Part shown: positions 23,604 through 35,865 of the stretch, piece by piece | How the letters are laid out: the number at the start of each line of letters is the position of its first letter | How positions within the stretch are numbered: position 1 is the first letter of the stretch | NCBI RefSeq assembly: GCF_009914755.1 | Contig: NC_060947.1 | Source: the human T2T-CHM13v2.0 reference genome, Homo sapiens | Reading direction: 5' to 3' (one strand) | Length of the DNA stretch: 64,000 nucleotides | Made by a program: the position numbers and the translations under genes | Notes under the pieces: generated by a model | What the model was told of the DNA's origin: nothing | Databases searched by the model: none | The model's input: the letters and a program-made list of their open reading frames with translations, nothing else

Positions 23604-24304
23604 AATTCCTTAATGCATTTAACTGGGGGCTCGTGATTGGAGGTTGAGAGAAATAAAATAAGTGTTTAATATTTAGTACCATTGTTTTAATGAGTCATCT
23701 TGTCTTTATTAACTCTAGTCAGAAGTCTTTATTAACTCTAGTCAGAAGACATATTCTATTTGTACTGTTAATTAAGAAGAAATAATCTATTGTTAATTCA
23801 ATCTAGCATTTCATTTTGTTTGGAGAACTTTAACTATCAAGTAAGCTTAGTGAAAATCTCCTTAATACGCAAAATAATCATGTAAGCATGGGGGATAAGC
23901 CTTGGTAGTTGAAATGGGATCTTTGCTGAGTTGTTTTTCTGTTTTCTGGGAATTACATTTTTCCACATTTAGGCCATCGATATATTTGAAAATAACACAG
24001 TAAATTATTTATTATTTCGAGAACAATTGTAGAGCTAATACACCTGTTGCAATTGGGTTGTTTTTGATTCAATGATAATGATTGTATTGCTTGATATATG
24101 GCTTACTTTCTTCTGACTCTCAATTGTATCAATCAGAGTTAATGGTAACAGTTTAAAAATGTCTAAACCCTTTGTTTTAAAATGTCTAAAGGTGTAAAAT
24201 GTTATTAAATGATTTAAAATGCATTATCAGAGATGTAATCGGGAAAGACTATCAGTTTGTGCAATAAAATCAACGTGAAAACATTCCAAGATCTAGGACA
24301 TAGC

Positions 24305-24703
24305 TGTCAGGCCTCTGAGCCCAAGCTAAGCCATCATATCCCCTGTGACCTGCACATACACATCCAGATGGCCGGTTCCTGCCTTAATTGATGACATTCC
24401 ACCACAAAAGCAGTGAAAATGGCCTGTTCCTGCCTTAACTGATGACGTCACCTTGTGAAATTCCTTCTCCTGGCTCATCCTGGCTCAAAAGCTCCCCTAC
24501 TGAGCACCCTGTGACCCCCACTCCTGCCCATCAGAGAACAACCCCCCTTTTTCCTTTACCTTCCCAAATCCTATAAAACGGCCCCACCCCATCTCCCTTC
24601 GCTCTCTTTTCAGACTCAGCCTGCCTGCACCCAGGTGAAATAAACAGCCTTGTTGCTCACACAAAGCCTGTTTGGTGGTCTCTTCACACAGACACGAGTG
24701 AAA
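24305..24703 (+). mobile_element. HERV-H 5' LTR (LTR7)
   Basis: TGTCAGGCCTCTGAGCCCAAG…GTGAAA; TATAAAA 24572-24578; AATAAA 24639-24644. Confidence 0.97.
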
Positions 24704-24705
24704 TT

Positions 24706-24723
24706 TGGTGCCGTGACTCGAAT
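24706..24723 (+). promoter_or_regulatory. Primer-binding site, tRNA-His
   Basis: TGGTGCCGTGACTCGAAT, one mismatch to the complement of the tRNA-His 3' end. Confidence 0.93.
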
Positions 24724-25559
24724 CGGGGGACCTCCCTTAGGAGATCAATCCCCTGTCCTCCTGCTCTTTGCTCCGTGAGAAAGATCCACCTACGACCTCA
24801 GGTCCTCAGACCGACCAGCCCAAGAAACATCTCACCAATTTCAAATCCAGTAAGCGGCCTCTTTTTACTCCCTTCTCCAACCTCCCTCACTATCCCTCAA
24901 CCTCTTTCTCCTTTCAATCTTGGTGCCACCCTTCAATCTCTCCCTTCTCTTAATTTCAATTCCTTTCATTTTCTAGTAGAGACAAAGGAGACACGTTTTA
25001 TCCATGGACTCAAAACTCTGGCACTGGTCACGGACTAGGGAAGGCAGCCTTCCCTTGGTGTTTAATCATTACAGGAACGCCTCTCTGATTATTTACTCAG
25101 GTTTCAGAGGTGTCAGACCACGCAAGGATGCCTGCCTTGGTACTTCACCCTTAGCGGCAAGTCCCGCTTTTATAAAGGAAAGGCAAGAACCCCTCAACCC
25201 CTTCTCCTTCACCCTTAGCGGCAAGTCCCGCTTTTCTGGAGGAGAGGCAAGAACCCTGACCTCTTATCCCTATGCCCCGATCCCTTATTTCTGTGCCCGG
25301 ACCTCTTATCTCTGCGCCCTGATCCCTTATTTCCACGCCCCGACCTCTTATCTCTGCACCCCAACCCCTTCTCTGCTTTTCTGGAAGGCAAGAACCCCCC
25401 CCCCCGCCCCCCGACCCCTTCTCCGTGTCTCTACTCTCTTTTCTCTGGGCTTGCCTCCTTCACTATAGGCAAGCTTCCACCTCCATTCCTCCTTCTTCTC
25501 CCTTAGCCTATGTTCTTAAGAACTTAAAACCTCTTCAACTCTCACCTGACCTAAAATCT

Positions 25560-26700
25560 ATGCGTCTTATTTTCTTCTGAAATGCCGCTTGACCCCAATA
25601 CAAACTCAACAGTAGTTCCAAATAGCCAGAAAACGGCACTTTCAATTTTTCCATCCTACAATATCTAAATAATTCTTGTCGTAAAATAGGCAAATGGTTT
25701 GAGGTGCCTGACGTCCAGGCATTCTTTTACACATCAGGCCCTCCCTAGTCTCTGTTCCCAATACAACTTGTCCCAAATCTTCCTTCTTTCCCTCCCGCCT
25801 GTCCCCTCAGTACCAACCCCAAGCGTCGTTAAGTCTTTCTAATCTTCCTTTTCTACAGACCTATCTGACCTCTCCCCTCCTCACCAGGCCGAGCTAAGTC
25901 CCAATTCTTACTCAGCCTCCGCTCCTCCACCCTATAATCCTTTTATCACCTCCCCTCCTCACACTCGGTCCGGCTTACAGTTTCGTTCTGTGACTAGCCC
26001 TCCCCCTCCTGCCCAGCAATTTACTCTTAAAAAGGTGGCTGGAGCTAAAGGCATAGTCAAGGTTAATGCTTCTTTTTCTTTATCCCAAATCAGAAGCGTT
26101 TAGGCTCTTTTTCATCAAATATAAAAACCCAGCCCAGTTCATGACTTGTTCGGCAGCAACCCTGAGACGCTTTACAGCCCTAGACCCTAAAAGGTCAAAA
26201 GGCCATCTTATTCTCAATATACATTTTATTACCCAATCTGCTCCCGACATTAAATAAAACTCCAAAAATTAAATTCCAGTCCTCAAACCCCACAACAGGA
26301 TTTAATTAACCTCGCCTTCAAGGTGTACAATAATAGAAAAAAGTTGCAATTCCTTGCCTCCACTCTGAGACAAACCCCAGCCACATCTCCAGCACACAAG
26401 AACTTCCAAATGCCTAAACCACAGTGGCCAGGCGTTCCTCCAGAACCGCCTCCCCCAGGAGCTTGCTACAAGTGCCAGAAATCTGGCCACCAGGCCAAGG
26501 AATGCCCGCAGCCCAGGATTCCTCCTAAGCCGCGTCCCATCTGTGCAGGACCCCACTAGAAATCGGACTGTTCAACTCACCTGGCAGCCACTCCCAGAGC
26601 CCCTGGAACTCTGGCCCAAGGCTCTCTGACTGACTCCTTCCCAGATCTTCTCGGCTTAGCAGCTGAAGACTGATGCTGCCCGATCACCTCAGAAGCCCTG
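25560..26700 (+). pseudogene. gag: HERV-H gag relic with nucleocapsid zinc knuckles
   Basis: CYKCQKSGHQAKEC (CX2CX4HX4C) at 26464-26505; broken second knuckle RPICAGPH*KSDC; many stops. Confidence 0.85.
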
Positions 26701-26724
26701 TAGACCATCACAGACGCCAAGCTT

Positions 26725-27020
26725 TAAGTAACTCTCACAGTGGAAGGTAAGTCCTTCCCCTTCTTAATCAATACGGAGGCTACCCACTCCACATTACCTT
26801 CTTTTCAAGGGCCTGTTTCCCTTGCCTCCATAACTGTTGTGGGTATTGACGGCCAGGCTTCTAAACCTCTTAAAACTCCTCAACTCTGGTGCCAACTTAG
26901 ACAATACTCTTTTAAGCACTCCTTTTTACTTATCCCCACCTGCCCAGTTCCCTTATTAGGCTGAGACACTTTAACTAAATTATCTGCTTCCCTGACTATT
27001 CCCGGACTACAGCTACATCT
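26725..27020 (+). pseudogene. pro: HERV-H protease relic
   Basis: FLINTEATHSTL (mutated DTG active site); CPVPLLG motif. Confidence 0.85.
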
Positions 27021-27099
27021 CATTGCCGCCCTTCTTCCCAATCCAAAGCCTCCTTTGCATCCTCCTCTTGTATCCCCCCCACCTTAACCCACAAGTATA

Positions 27100-29200
27100 A
27101 GATACCTCTACTCCCTCCTTAGTGACCGATCATGCGCCCCTTACCATCTCATTGAAACCTAATCACCCTTACCTCGCTCAATGCCAATATCCCATCCCAC
27201 AGCACGCTTTAAAAAGATTAAAGCCTGTTATCACTCGCCTGCTACAGCATGGCCTTTTAAAGCCTATAAACTCTCCTTACAATTCCCCCATTTTACCTGT
27301 CCTAAAACCAGACAAGACTTACAAGTTAGTTCAAGATCTGTGCCTTATCAACCAAATTGTTTTGCCTATCCAGCCCGTGGTGCCAAACCCATATACTCTC
27401 CTATCCTCAATACCTCCCTCCACAATCCATTATTCTGTTCTAGATCTCAAACATGCTTTCTTTACTATTCCTTTGCACCCTTCATCCCAGCCTCTCTTCG
27501 CTTTCACTTAGACTGACTCTGACACCAATCAGGCTCAGCAAATTACCTGGGCTGTACTGCCGCAAAGCTTCACAGACAGCCCCCATTACTTCAGTCAAGC
27601 CCAAATTTCTTCCTCATCTGTTACCCATCTCAGCATAATTCTCGTAAAAACACATGTGCTCTCCCTGCTGATCGTGTCCGACTAATCTCCCAAACCTCAA
27701 TCCCTTCTACAAAACAACAACTCCTTTCCTTCCTAGGCATAGTTAGATACTTTCGCCTTTAGATACCTAGTTTTACCATCCTAACAAAACCATTATATAA
27801 ACTCACAAAAAGAAACCTAGCTAACCCCATAGATCCTAAATCCTTTCCCCACTCCTCTTTCCATTCCTTGAAGACAGCTTTAGAGACTGCCCCCACCCTA
27901 GCTCTCCCTGACTCATCCCAACCCTTTTCATTACACACAGCTGAAGTGCAAGGCTGTGCAGTCAGAATTCTTACACTAGGACCAAGATCATGTCCTGTAG
28001 CCTTTGTCCAAACAACTTGACCTTACTGTTTTAGGCTGGCCATCATGTCTCCATGCAGCAGCTGCTGCCGCCTTAATACTTTCAGAGGCTCTAAAAATCA
28101 CAAACTATACTCAACTCACTCTCTACATTTCTCATAACTTCCAAAATCTATTTTCTTCCTCACACCTGACACATATACTTTCTGCTCCCCAGCTCCTTCA
28201 GCTATACTCACTCTTTGTTAAGTCTCCCACAATTACCATTGTTCCTGGCCCAGACTTCAGTCCAGCCTCCCACATTATTCCAGATACCACACCTGACCCT
28301 CATGACTGCATCTCTCTGATCCACCTGACGTTCACCCCATTTCCCCATATTTCCTCCTTTCCTGTTCCTCACCCTGATCACACTTAGTTTATTGATGGCG
28401 GTTCCACCAGGACTAATCGCCACACACCAGCAAAGGCAGGCTATGCTACAGTACAAGCCACTAGCCCACCTCTTAAAACCTCTCATTTCCTTTCCATCGT
28501 AGAAATCTATCCTCAAAGAAATAACTTCTCAGTGTTCCATCTGCTATTCTACTACTTCTGAAGGATTATTCAGGCCCCCTCCCTTCCCTAAACATCAAGC
28601 TCAAAGATTTGCCCCTGCCCAAGGCTGGCAAATTTGCTATTCTACTACTTCTCAATGATTATTCAGGCCCCCTCCCTTCCCTACACATCAAGCTCAAAGA
28701 TTTGCCCCCGCCCAGGACTGGCAAATTAGCTTTACTCAACATACCCTGAGTCAGATAACTAAAATACCTCTTAGTCTAAGTAGACACTTTCATTAGATAA
28801 GTAGAGGCCTTTCCTACAAGGTCTGAGAAGACCACCACAGTCATTTCTTCCCTTCTGTCAGACACAATTCCTCAGTTTAGCCTTCCCACCTCTCTACAGT
28901 CTGATAACAGACCAGCCTTTATTAGTCAAATCAGCCAAGCACTTTTTCAGGCTCTTAGTATTCAGTGAAACCTTTATATCCCTTTACAGTCCTCAGTCTT
29001 CAGGAAAAGTAGAATGGACTAAAAGTCTTTTAAAAACACACCTCACCAAGCTCAGCCACCAACTTAAAAAAGACTAGACAATACTTATACCACTTTCCCT
29101 TCTCAGAATTCAGGCCTGTCCTCAGAATGCTACGAAGTACAGCCCATTTAAGCTCCTGTATAGATGCTCCTTTTTATTAGGCCCCAGTCTCATCCCAAAT
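27100..29200 (+). pseudogene. pol: HERV-H pol relic (RT, partial RNase H, integrase)
   Basis: QYPI…SPYNSPILPVLKPDKTYKLVQDL…VLDLKHAFF RT motifs; FIDG RNase H start; SLQSDNRPAF integrase motif; stops, frameshifts and deletions. Confidence 0.9.
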
Positions 29201-30109
29201 ACCAGACAAACTTAGACTGTGCCCCAAAAAACTTGTCATCCCTTCTATCTTCTATCTAGTCATACTCCTATTCACCGTTCTCAACTACTCATACATGCCC
29301 TGCTCTTGTTTACATTGCCGGTTTACACTGTTTCTCCAAGCCATTACAGCTGATATCTCCTGGTGCTATCCCCAAACTGCCACTCTTAACTCTTAAAGTA
29401 AATAAATAATCTTTCCTGGCAAGGCTATGCTGAACCTCTTTAAGCACTCTCTAATTAGATGTCCTAAATTCTCCCAATTCTTAGTCCTTTAATACCTGTA
29501 TTTCTCCTTCTCTTATTCCGTTGAGTTTTTCAATCCATACAAAACCGTATCCAGGCCATCACCAATAATTCTACATGACAAATGTTTCTTCTAACAACCC
29601 CACAATATCACCCCTTACCACAAAATCTTCCTTCAGCTTAATCTCTCCCACTCTAAGTTCCCAAGCTGCCCCTAATCCCGCTCAAAGCAGCCCTGAGAAA
29701 CATCGCCAATTATCTCTCCATACCACCCCAAAAAATTTTCACCGTCCCAACACTTTACCACTATTTCGTTTTATTTCTCTTATTAATATAAGAAGACAAT
29801 AGCAACTAATAAAAACTTAAAAGAACTCAAAGAAATTTTAAAATACTTGTGATATTGTGACTTATTATAAGAAATATAAATCTGATCTTTATCCCCATTT
29901 CCTGGCTTACAGCTCCGAAAGCCCTTGCATTCTCTGAAGTTATAAGTGTCTTTTTGTATGCTAATAAGATGACTGATGGCTGGGGCCTCCTGAGCTGCCT
30001 CAGGATGAAGGCCAATTGCCAGGTAAACAACCATGTGATGAGAGGACTGAAACTTTCAGCCCCATCCCATGAACTCCAGAAAGGGGAGAAGATCTGAAGG
30101 TTGAGTTAA

Positions 30110-31133: not shown

Positions 31134-32194
<1,061 letters not shown>

Positions 32195-35461: not shown

Positions 35462-35865
35462 TGTCAGGCCTCTGAGCCCAAGCTAAGCCATCATATCCCC
35501 TGTGACCTGCACGTACACATCCAGATGGCCAGTTCCTGCCTTAACTGATGACATTCCACCACAAAAGAAGTGAAAATGGCCTGTTCCTGACTTAACTGAT
35601 GACATTATCTTGTGAAATTCCTTCTCCTGGCTCATCCTGGCTCAAAAGCTCCCCTACTGAGCACCTTGTGACCCCCACTCCTGCCCACCAGAGAACAACC
35701 CCCCTTTTTCCTTTACCTACCCAAATCCTATAAAACGGCCCCACCCCTATCTCCCTTCGCTGACTCTCTTTTTGGACTCAGCCCGCCTGCACCCAGGTGA
35801 AATAAACAGCCTTGTTGCTCACACAAAGCCTGTTTGGTGGTCTCTTCACACGGACGCGAGTGAAA
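35462..35865 (+). mobile_element. HERV-H solo LTR7
   Basis: Near-identical to 24305-24703; its own TSD tctac/cctac; no PBS or PPT adjacent. Confidence 0.96.

What the first reader, a model, noticed from the sequence alone, without database searches (positions are those of the whole stretch)
24300..29803. Single-LTR HERV-H with intact TSD, ending in CA inside the PPT: possible integrated one-LTR circle
Seen: ATAGC (24300-24304) | TGTCAGG-LTR7-PBS-gag-pro-pol…TTATTAATATAAGAAGACA | ATAGC (29799-29803). There is no 3' LTR, yet the 5-bp TSD is perfect. Recalled knowledge: the HERV-H PPT/U3 junction normally reads …AAGACA-GGAA-TGTCAGG, and retroviral integrase joins CA-3' ends with two bases lost per end. 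Inference: in a one-LTR circle this junction is GACA-ggaa-TGTC, an inverted repeat with CA-N4-TG spacing that mimics a two-LTR circle junction. Cutting there and integrating would give exactly this structure: one LTR, TG…CA ends, 4 nt lost and a normal TSD. One-LTR circles are usually considered dead ends, so a germline fossil would be notable. The alternative is a later near-precise deletion of GGAA plus the 3' LTR.
Basis: partly seen in the sequence, partly recalled or inferred. Interest (0 to 1): 0.88.

Follow-up and report, generated by a model that had tools for sequence, protein, structure and literature searches.

The report
One-LTR HERV-H provirus, recurrent form
This endogenous retrovirus has only its left LTR and stops at a CA inside its polypurine tract, yet has an intact 5-bp target duplication; six more copies elsewhere in the genome have the same structure, so it was most likely inserted in this form by the viral integrase.

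Summary
ATAGC (24300-24304) is followed by TGTCAGG, LTR7, a PBS and gag-pro-pol remnants. The element ends ...AAGAAGACA (29798) and is followed by ATAGC (29799-29803). There is no 3' LTR.

The usual junction is AAGACA-GGAA-TGTCAGG, with a 4-nt spacer in 30 of 30 sampled copies.

Nine HERV-H tails in the same genome run into non-LTR, non-Alu DNA.
- Seven end at the same CA and are followed by a 5-mer identical to the 5 nt before their own 5' LTR: ATAGC, TGGAC, CTGAT, GTTGC, GTGTT, GTAAC and GGAAC. The last is ambiguous.
- One ends 4 nt later with its own TSD.
- One has no TSD.

Ordinary two-LTR copies have 5-bp TSDs, and their right end is ...TGAAA, so it is AA and not CA. The single-LTR copies are scattered on a tree of copies.

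Repeated later deletion is therefore very unlikely. The integrase most likely used the CA in the PPT as a right end at integration. A one-LTR circular substrate is the most economical reading, but sequence alone cannot prove it. No description was found in print.

The parts
24300..24304 (+). left copy of the 5-bp target-site duplication, ATAGC
   Evidence: identical to 29799-29803
24305..24703 (+). the only LTR (LTR7-type 5' LTR), starting TGTCAGG and ending GTGAAA
   Evidence: 94.8% identical over 399 nt to the solo LTR at 35462-35865
24704..24723 (+). tt dinucleotide (24704-24705) and the 18-nt primer-binding site TGGTGCCGTGACTCGAAT (24706-24723). The tRNA-His assignment is recalled, not tested.
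24724..29789 (+). internal region with broken gag-pro-pol: zinc knuckle 26254-26559, protease 26728-26964, RT 27101-27511, RNase H-like 27763-28020. There are many stops. It is collinear with other HERV-H copies.
29790..29798 (+). truncated polypurine tract AAGAAGACA. The element's right terminus is the CA at 29797-29798, 4 nt short of where U3 starts in ordinary copies.
29799..29803 (+). right copy of the 5-bp target-site duplication, ATAGC

Best explanation
The element was inserted in this form. HERV-H integrase paired the authentic U3 end (TGTCAGG...) with a pseudo-end, the CA inside the polypurine tract. That CA lies 4 nt before U3, in the inverted repeat GACA-GGAA-TGTC. This repeat has the same CA-N4-TG geometry as an LTR-LTR circle junction.

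The simplest substrate is a viral DNA circle with one LTR, either covalently closed or the nicked circular intermediate of reverse transcription, which already has a plus-strand break at the PPT/U3 border. Staggered cuts after the two CAs linearise the circle into LTR-PBS-gag-pro-pol-...AAGACA. Ordinary concerted strand transfer then gives one LTR, TG...CA termini, loss of GGAA and the family's normal 5-bp duplication.

Shown: the structure, the family junction, the recurrence at the same base with independent TSDs, and the normal 5-bp TSD. Inferred: that integrase made the cuts, and that the substrate was circular.
For: 1. Structure in the window.

2. The junction AAGACA-GGAA-TGTCAGG has a 4-nt spacer in 30 of 30 sampled copies.

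3. Recurrence. Among the 502 exact occurrences of the 16-nt tail (21 in the reversed control) and its AAGGCA variant, I found 9 HERV-H tails followed by non-LTR, non-Alu DNA. In 7 of the 9, the 5 nt after the CA equal the 5 nt before the copy's own 5' LTR:
- window, ATAGC
- C5:96.67 Mb, TGGAC
- C16:53.64 Mb, CTGAT
- C3:57.35 Mb, GTTGC
- C4:155.14 Mb, GTGTT
- C5:22.21 Mb, GGAAC
- C1:3.69 Mb, GTAAC (found through a pattern hit 6.5 kb upstream on the same strand)
Each match has a chance of 1/1024.

4. In the screen of the 10 nt after an 18-nt anchor (40 and 34 hits), no inspected HERV-H copy breaks off before AAGACA. The two tails left uninspected in the Against line read non-canonically within those 10 nt.

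5. Ordinary two-LTR copies have a 5-bp TSD and a right end ...TGAAA (L019 and L041; solo LTR). The pseudo-end therefore offers the canonical CA and the same terminal TGTC as U3.

6. The single-LTR copies have different flanks and internal structure and are scattered among 30 ordinary copies on a tree. They are independent events.

7. No comparable class was seen at the other end. The PBS was not preceded by an LTR end in 7 hits at 5 loci, against about 6 expected by chance.

8. Precedents in print. HIV-1 integrase cleaves the 2-LTR junction palindrome internally (PMC1905944, abstract read). HTLV-1 proviruses without a 5' LTR keep 6-bp repeats next to internal sequence, which was read as integrase using an internal site (PMC6950816, passage read).
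Against: - No experiment shows that any integrase cuts this junction.
- Circle and linear substrates give the same product, so sequence cannot tell them apart.
- One copy (C7:147.42 Mb) ends 4 nt later, at ...AAGACAGGAA, with its own repeat CTTAC. The CA rule does not explain it.
- One copy (C19:30.96 Mb) ends at AAGACA but has no repeat, GAGGG against CGACT.
- The GGAAC case is ambiguous, because its TSD repeats the PPT tail.
- I found no integrated 2-LTR junction, which would have proved a circular origin.
- Three hits of the tail screens were not inspected: C5:127184703, and C8:2992655 and C19:23167258.
- Orthologous empty sites were not available.
Confidence: 0.6

Rival explanations
1. The pseudo-end is the same but the substrate is linear. 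In an ordinary two-LTR linear DNA, integrase synapsed the true U3 end with the internal CA of the PPT, as proposed for HTLV-1 proviruses that lack one LTR. The 3' LTR was discarded during joining and repair.
For: It gives the same product, so the evidence fits equally well. The precedent is a passage in PMC6950816: 6-bp repeats abut pol or env sequence in ATL proviruses without a 5' LTR. No integrated 2-LTR junction was found, so nothing demands a circle.
Against: Both strands must be cut at an internal site, and a whole LTR must be removed as a flap. In the HTLV-1 precedent the internal sites vary, whereas here the site is fixed at the one place that copies a circle junction with exact 4-nt spacing. 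A circle or nicked circle explains that more simply.
Confidence: 0.27
2. Ordinary two-LTR proviruses later lost GGAA plus the 3' LTR through deletion, for example by microhomology-mediated end joining.
For: The C7:147.42 Mb copy (precise loss of the LTR only, 2-nt AA microhomology possible) and the C5:22.21 Mb copy (AGGAA microhomology possible) could have arisen this way. The C19 copy has no TSD.
Against: Five loci share both break points to the base with only 1 nt (A) of microhomology: the window, C5:96.67, C16, C3 and C4. C1 does too in the AAGGCA variant. The right break always falls exactly at the LTR/TSD border. No inspected HERV-H tail broke off before the CA among the 74 hits (two tails were not inspected). 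No matching class was seen at the 5' LTR.
Confidence: 0.06
3. It is a chance 5-mer match beside a randomly truncated element, or an assembly collapse.
For: None beyond the prior that truncated ERVs are common.
Against: A match has a chance of 1/1024 per locus, and 7 of 9 LTR-less tails have it in the same register. The same structure occurs on six different chromosomes of the assembly (chromosome 5 carries two copies).
Confidence: 0.01

Closest known systems
HTLV-1 'type 2' defective proviruses lacking the 5' LTR (passage in PMC6950816)
   Same: They have one LTR. A repeat of the virus's normal TSD length abuts internal viral sequence. They are read as formed before or at integration, by integrase recognising an internal sequence plus one true LTR end.
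   Different: In HTLV-1 the 5' LTR is missing, the internal sites vary (pol, env), and the events are somatic in leukaemic clones. Here the 3' LTR is missing, the end point is one fixed base in the PPT, and the insertions are germline-fixed and recurrent.
Integrase cleavage of the LTR-LTR (2-LTR circle) junction palindrome: HIV-1 (PMC1905944, abstract), PFV (PMC1180852, listing and abstract start only), 2-LTR circles as a reserve for integration (PMC4372172, abstract start only), and the early circle-junction model (PMC11054761, passages)
   Same: The site is an inverted repeat with CA-N4-TG spacing. Staggered internal cuts after the two CAs would release integration-competent ends.
   Different: The site here is not U5-U3 but PPT-U3, a pseudo-junction present in one-LTR forms. 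The evidence is genomic fossils, not biochemistry. The product lacks an LTR.
Solo LTRs formed by LTR-LTR recombination
   Same: One LTR is flanked by the TSD.
   Different: A solo LTR loses the internal region. Here the whole internal region is kept and only the 3' LTR plus 4 nt is absent. The solo LTR at 35462-35865 is an example of the ordinary kind.
L1-mediated processed copies of HERV transcripts (known for HERV-W; recalled, not searched)
   Same: They are ERV copies with incomplete LTRs.
   Different: Those copies start in R, end in poly(A) and have long variable TSDs. This element starts at the U3 TG, has no poly(A) and has the retroviral 5-bp TSD.

Membership tests
HERV-H (LTR7 / HERVH-int) provirus | LTR7-type LTR starting TGTCAGG | tested here: met
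   94.8% identical to a solo LTR7-type copy; the same start as hundreds of copies
HERV-H (LTR7 / HERVH-int) provirus | PBS TGGTGCCGTGACTC... directly after the LTR plus 2 nt | tested here: met
   the same 14-mer occurs 342 times in the genome. The tRNA-His assignment is recalled.
HERV-H (LTR7 / HERVH-int) provirus | gag-pro-pol of retroviral type | tested here: met
   zf-CCHC and RVP above the cut-off; RVT_1 and RT_RNaseH_2 below the cut-off; the frames are broken
HERV-H (LTR7 / HERVH-int) provirus | 5-bp target-site duplication | tested here: met
   ordinary copies L019 and L041 also have 5 bp
HERV-H (LTR7 / HERVH-int) provirus | two LTRs, with the PPT followed by GGAA and U3 | tested here: not met
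   AAGACA is followed directly by the TSD; canonical in 30 of 30 other copies
Solo LTR by recombination | LTR alone between the TSD copies | tested here: not met
   5.1 kb of internal sequence is retained
L1-mediated processed ERV copy | starts in R, ends in poly(A), long TSD | tested here: not met
One-LTR defective provirus formed at integration (HTLV-1 type 2-like) | a repeat of normal TSD length abutting internal viral sequence on the side that lacks the LTR | tested here: met
   window and 6 other loci
Integrase circle-junction (att) substrate | inverted repeat with CA, a 4-nt spacer and TG | tested here: met
   GACA-GGAA-TGTC in 20 of 30 copies exactly; the spacer is 4 nt in 30 of 30
Integrase circle-junction (att) substrate | actual cleavage and joining by the cognate integrase | not testable with these tools
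   needs biochemistry

The most novel reading that the evidence does not exclude
HERV-H carried a built-in second attachment site: its PPT/U3 border copies an LTR-LTR circle junction. Because of it, one-LTR circular DNA, normally taken to be a dead end, was repeatedly linearised and integrated by the viral integrase in the primate germ line. That left at least 6-7 fixed fossils, about 1% of the copies screened. This would be the first natural evidence that circular retroviral DNA can be an integration substrate.
Probability: 0.5. Interest if true: 0.88.

Novelty: new variant of a known kind. Interest (0 to 1): 0.78.

Why it matters
Whether circular retroviral DNA can ever be integrated has been argued since 1984 (PMC11054761, passages read). 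It returned with work on cleavage of 2-LTR junctions by HIV and foamy-virus integrases.

This genome holds a natural experiment. A retrovirus family whose PPT/U3 border mimics a circle junction has left several independent one-LTR insertions. Each ends at the predicted CA, lacks the predicted 4 nt and has normal TSDs.

This gives a concrete sequence rule that can be tested:
- in other ERV families, with or without a CA-N4-TG border;
- in other primate genomes;
- at the bench.

It also matters for ERV annotation and dating. Such copies are not decayed two-LTR proviruses. They never had a 3' LTR, so they could not be dated by LTR divergence or turn into solo LTRs.

Tried and rejected
1. The missing 3' LTR is displaced downstream. 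The LTR7 at 35462-35865 has its own flanks, tCTAC/cCTAC, and no GGAA or ATAGC beside it. Rejected.

2. An integrated 2-LTR circle junction would show a circular origin. The pattern search with up to 2 mismatches gave 38 hits. The only 1-mismatch hit (C9:27776554) has non-LTR DNA upstream. The 2-mismatch hits were judged by eye only. Nothing was found.

3. C7:13377768 (AAGACA|GTACA) looked like a further case. Its upstream sequence is not HERV-H, so it is a chance hit.

4. The 10 'GGAATAGG' hits are not LTR-less ends. In L052 this is an internal second copy of the tail, about 540 nt upstream of the real PPT. The other 9 were not inspected.

5. Three tails run into Alu sequence at the junction (L075, L087, L082). 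They were left out of the count of nine.

6. I tried to show the empty site through paralogous repeats. BLAST of the flanks against all held sequence found no paralogue spanning an insertion site.

8. Literature. Searches for HERV-H with 1-LTR circle (0 papers), one-LTR circle with integration, endogenous retrovirus and PPT (none relevant among the 15 listed), HERV-H with 3' LTR, TSD and PPT, HERVH with solo LTR, truncated, 5' LTR and TSD, and provirus with one LTR, TSD, circular, integrase and endogenous (3 papers, none describing this) found no prior description. Subscription-journal HERV-H surveys are not in the library.

9. The census is incomplete. The true number of such copies is probably higher.
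Full report
**1. Observation**

Searches confirm the finding base for base: ATAGC (24300-24304) | TGTCAGG... and ...TTATTAATATAAGAAGACA (ends 29798) | ATAGC (29799-29803).

- The LTR runs 24305-24703 (399 bp, ending GTGAAA). It is followed by tt and the PBS TGGTGCCGTGACTCGAAT at 24706-24723.
- The internal region carries broken frames. Pfam finds zf-CCHC, RVP, RVT_1 and RT_RNaseH_2 in them (the last two are below the curated cut-off).
- BLAST of the element against the window finds no 3' LTR. The only other LTR7 is at 35462-35865, 94.8% identical to the 5' LTR. Its own flanks are tCTAC/cCTAC, so it is an unrelated solo LTR.

**2. The normal junction**

The window's genome (a human T2T assembly, 24 contigs) can be searched by pattern. 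The 19-nt tail occurs 984 times with up to 1 mismatch. In the 30 loci fetched, 30 of 30 have a 4-nt spacer before the LTR start, and 20 of 30 read exactly GGAATGTCAGG.

**3. The normal ends**

Two ordinary two-LTR proviruses have GTAAC before TGTCAGG. Their 3' LTRs end ...GTGAAA|GTAAC and ...CATGAAA|GTAAC (L019 and L041). The normal TSD is therefore 5 bp. The normal right terminus is AA, not CA.

Read inward, the three ends are:
- U3 end: TGTCAG
- U5 end: TTTCAC
- PPT pseudo-end: TGTCTT

The pseudo-end copies the U3 end and supplies the canonical CA.

**4. Recurrence**

- searched the 16-mer tail followed by a non-G base and gave 27 hits. By context, 16 are ordinary junctions with a point change, 7 are chance hits outside HERV-H, and 4 are HERV-H tails followed by non-LTR DNA. 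The four are the window, C5:96.67 Mb, C16:53.64 Mb and C19:30.96 Mb.
- Searches used an 18-nt anchor, then 10 free bases, then a base that excludes the LTR start. They gave 40 and 34 hits. One search covered flanks that start with G (26 hits) and the AAGGCA variant (4 hits).
- These added C3:57.35 Mb, C4:155.14 Mb, C5:22.21 Mb, C7:147.42 Mb and C1:3.69 Mb.
- They also returned three tails that run into Alu (L075, L087, L082), one chance hit (C7:13.38 Mb), and an internal second copy of the tail that reads GGAATAGG (seen in L052).
- Three hits were not inspected further: C5:127184703 (GGAATAAT), C8:2992655 (AAAACAGGACTT) and C19:23167258 (AAGAAAATATTAATA).
- The exact 16-mer occurs 502 times, against 21 for the reversed control.

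**5. TSD test of the nine LTR-less tails**

| Locus | 5' flank / 3' flank | Result |
|---|---|---|
| window | ATAGC / ATAGC | match |
| C5:96.67 Mb | TGGAC / TGGAC | match |
| C16:53.64 Mb | CTGAT / CTGAT | match |
| C3:57.35 Mb | GTTGC / GTTGC | match |
| C4:155.14 Mb | GTGTT / GTGTT | match |
| C1:3.69 Mb | GTAAC / GTAAC | match; the tail reads AAGGCA|GTAAC and GTAAC|TGTCAGGCC lies 6.5 kb upstream on the same strand |
| C5:22.21 Mb | GGAAC / GGAAC | match, but ambiguous: the TSD repeats the PPT tail, so the end could lie anywhere within AGGAA |
| C7:147.42 Mb | CTTAC / CTTAC | ends 4 nt later, ...AAGACAGGAA|CTTAC |
| C19:30.96 Mb | GAGGG / CGACT | ends at AAGACA, no repeat |

So 7 of 9 match 5/5 in the register set by the CA. 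Six are clean and one is ambiguous. The chance of a match is 1/1024 each.

In the 10 nt after the 18-nt anchor, no inspected HERV-H copy breaks off before AAGACA. The two uninspected tails read non-canonically there.

**6. Independence**

The copies differ in flanks, length and internal deletions. On a tree of 38 tails of 900 nt each (30 ordinary copies and 8 LTR-less; C4 was not held), they are scattered, and C1 sits in a distant clade. Branch support was not examined. A copy without a 3' LTR cannot itself be copied in the usual way, so each is a separate event.

**7. Controls**

- *5' side.* The PBS 14-mer occurs 342 times, against 11 for the control. It is not preceded by an LTR end in 7 hits at 5 loci. 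About 6 are expected by chance, taking the 11 control hits times the 0.56 pass rate of the filter.
- *2-LTR junction.* No convincing integrated junction was found.

**8. Mechanism**

A later deletion would have to hit the same two bases repeatedly with only 1 nt of microhomology, and the right break would always have to fall at the LTR/TSD border. I reject this for the six clean cases. It remains possible for C7:147.42 Mb, C5:22.21 Mb and C19.

The structure is what concerted integration gives when the right end is the CA of the PPT. By analogy with MLV (recalled), the PPT primer ends ...CAGG and unintegrated U3 starts AATG. CA is then followed by exactly 2 nt on each strand of the border, and 4 nt are lost in all.

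The only natural DNA forms in which this border is a potential pair of ends are one-LTR circular forms. These are closed circles or the nicked circular intermediate, whose plus-strand break lies at this border. Using the same pseudo-end in a linear two-LTR DNA, as proposed for HTLV-1 (PMC6950816, passage read), gives the same product and cannot be excluded.

Internal cleavage of a circle-junction palindrome by integrase has in vitro precedent (PMC1905944, abstract read). The history of the circle model is summarised in PMC11054761 (passages read).

**9. Novelty**

Five literature searches found no description of one-LTR HERV-H copies with TSDs, or of germline integration through a PPT/U3 pseudo-junction. 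Older HERV-H surveys in subscription journals are outside the library and may hold relevant tables.

I rate this a new variant of a known kind: a defective provirus formed at integration through an internal integrase site. It is of high interest because it bears on whether circular viral DNA can integrate.

**10. Verdict**

- A pre-integration, integrase-mediated origin is about 0.87 likely in total. That splits into 0.60 for a circular one-LTR substrate and 0.27 for a linear one.
- Later deletion is about 0.06 likely, and chance or an assembly artefact about 0.01.

Noticed in passing
window 35462-35865: A solo LTR7-type LTR in the same orientation, 94.8% identical to the 5' LTR of the element. 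Its own imperfect 5-bp repeat is TCTAC/CCTAC. It is an independent insertion 5.7 kb downstream.
   Followed up: yes
L019, L041 (G000 C1:112.83 Mb, C6:81.72 Mb); window 24698-24705: The right terminus of ordinary HERV-H proviruses is ...TGAAA (AA), followed by tt before the PBS in the 5' LTR. It is not the canonical CA.
   Followed up: partly
L052 (G000 C18:74525674 and 74526212); also pairs at C3:58635083/58635624, C5:98943233/98943776, C14:14902707/14903253: Some HERV-H copies carry a second, internal copy of the tail ...TTAATATAAGAAGACAGGAAT about 540 nt upstream of the real PPT. It is followed by AGGCCTTGACTTAC... and not by an LTR. This looks like an old internal duplication or template switch.
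   Followed up: partly
L075 (C5:98.94 Mb), L087 (C11:70.23 Mb), L082 (C9:118.97 Mb): Three HERV-H copies have Alu sequence starting within 1-2 nt of AAGACAG, at the PPT/U3 border. The A-rich PPT may be a favoured L1-endonuclease target.
   Followed up: no
G000 C1:34994658(+) and C1:35000702(-): Two LTR7 starts face each other 6 kb apart, each preceded by GTAAC on its own strand, so the flanks are inverted and not direct. This suggests an inverted duplication or an unusual provirus with two U3-type outer ends.
   Followed up: no
window 28539-28731: A tandem duplication of about 93 nt inside the internal region: 28539-28638 against 28632-28731, 92% identical.
   Followed up: no
window 31760-31882 (-): A weak match (76.6% over 124 nt) to part of the LTR on the opposite strand. 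It is probably an older related LTR fragment.
   Followed up: no
G000 C7:147423865 (-), L080/L095: A one-LTR HERV-H copy ends at ...AAGACAGGAA, keeping the whole PPT and lacking exactly the LTR, with a perfect CTTAC repeat. The CA rule does not explain it. It may be an AA-type end like the normal U5 end, or a 2-nt-microhomology deletion.
   Followed up: partly
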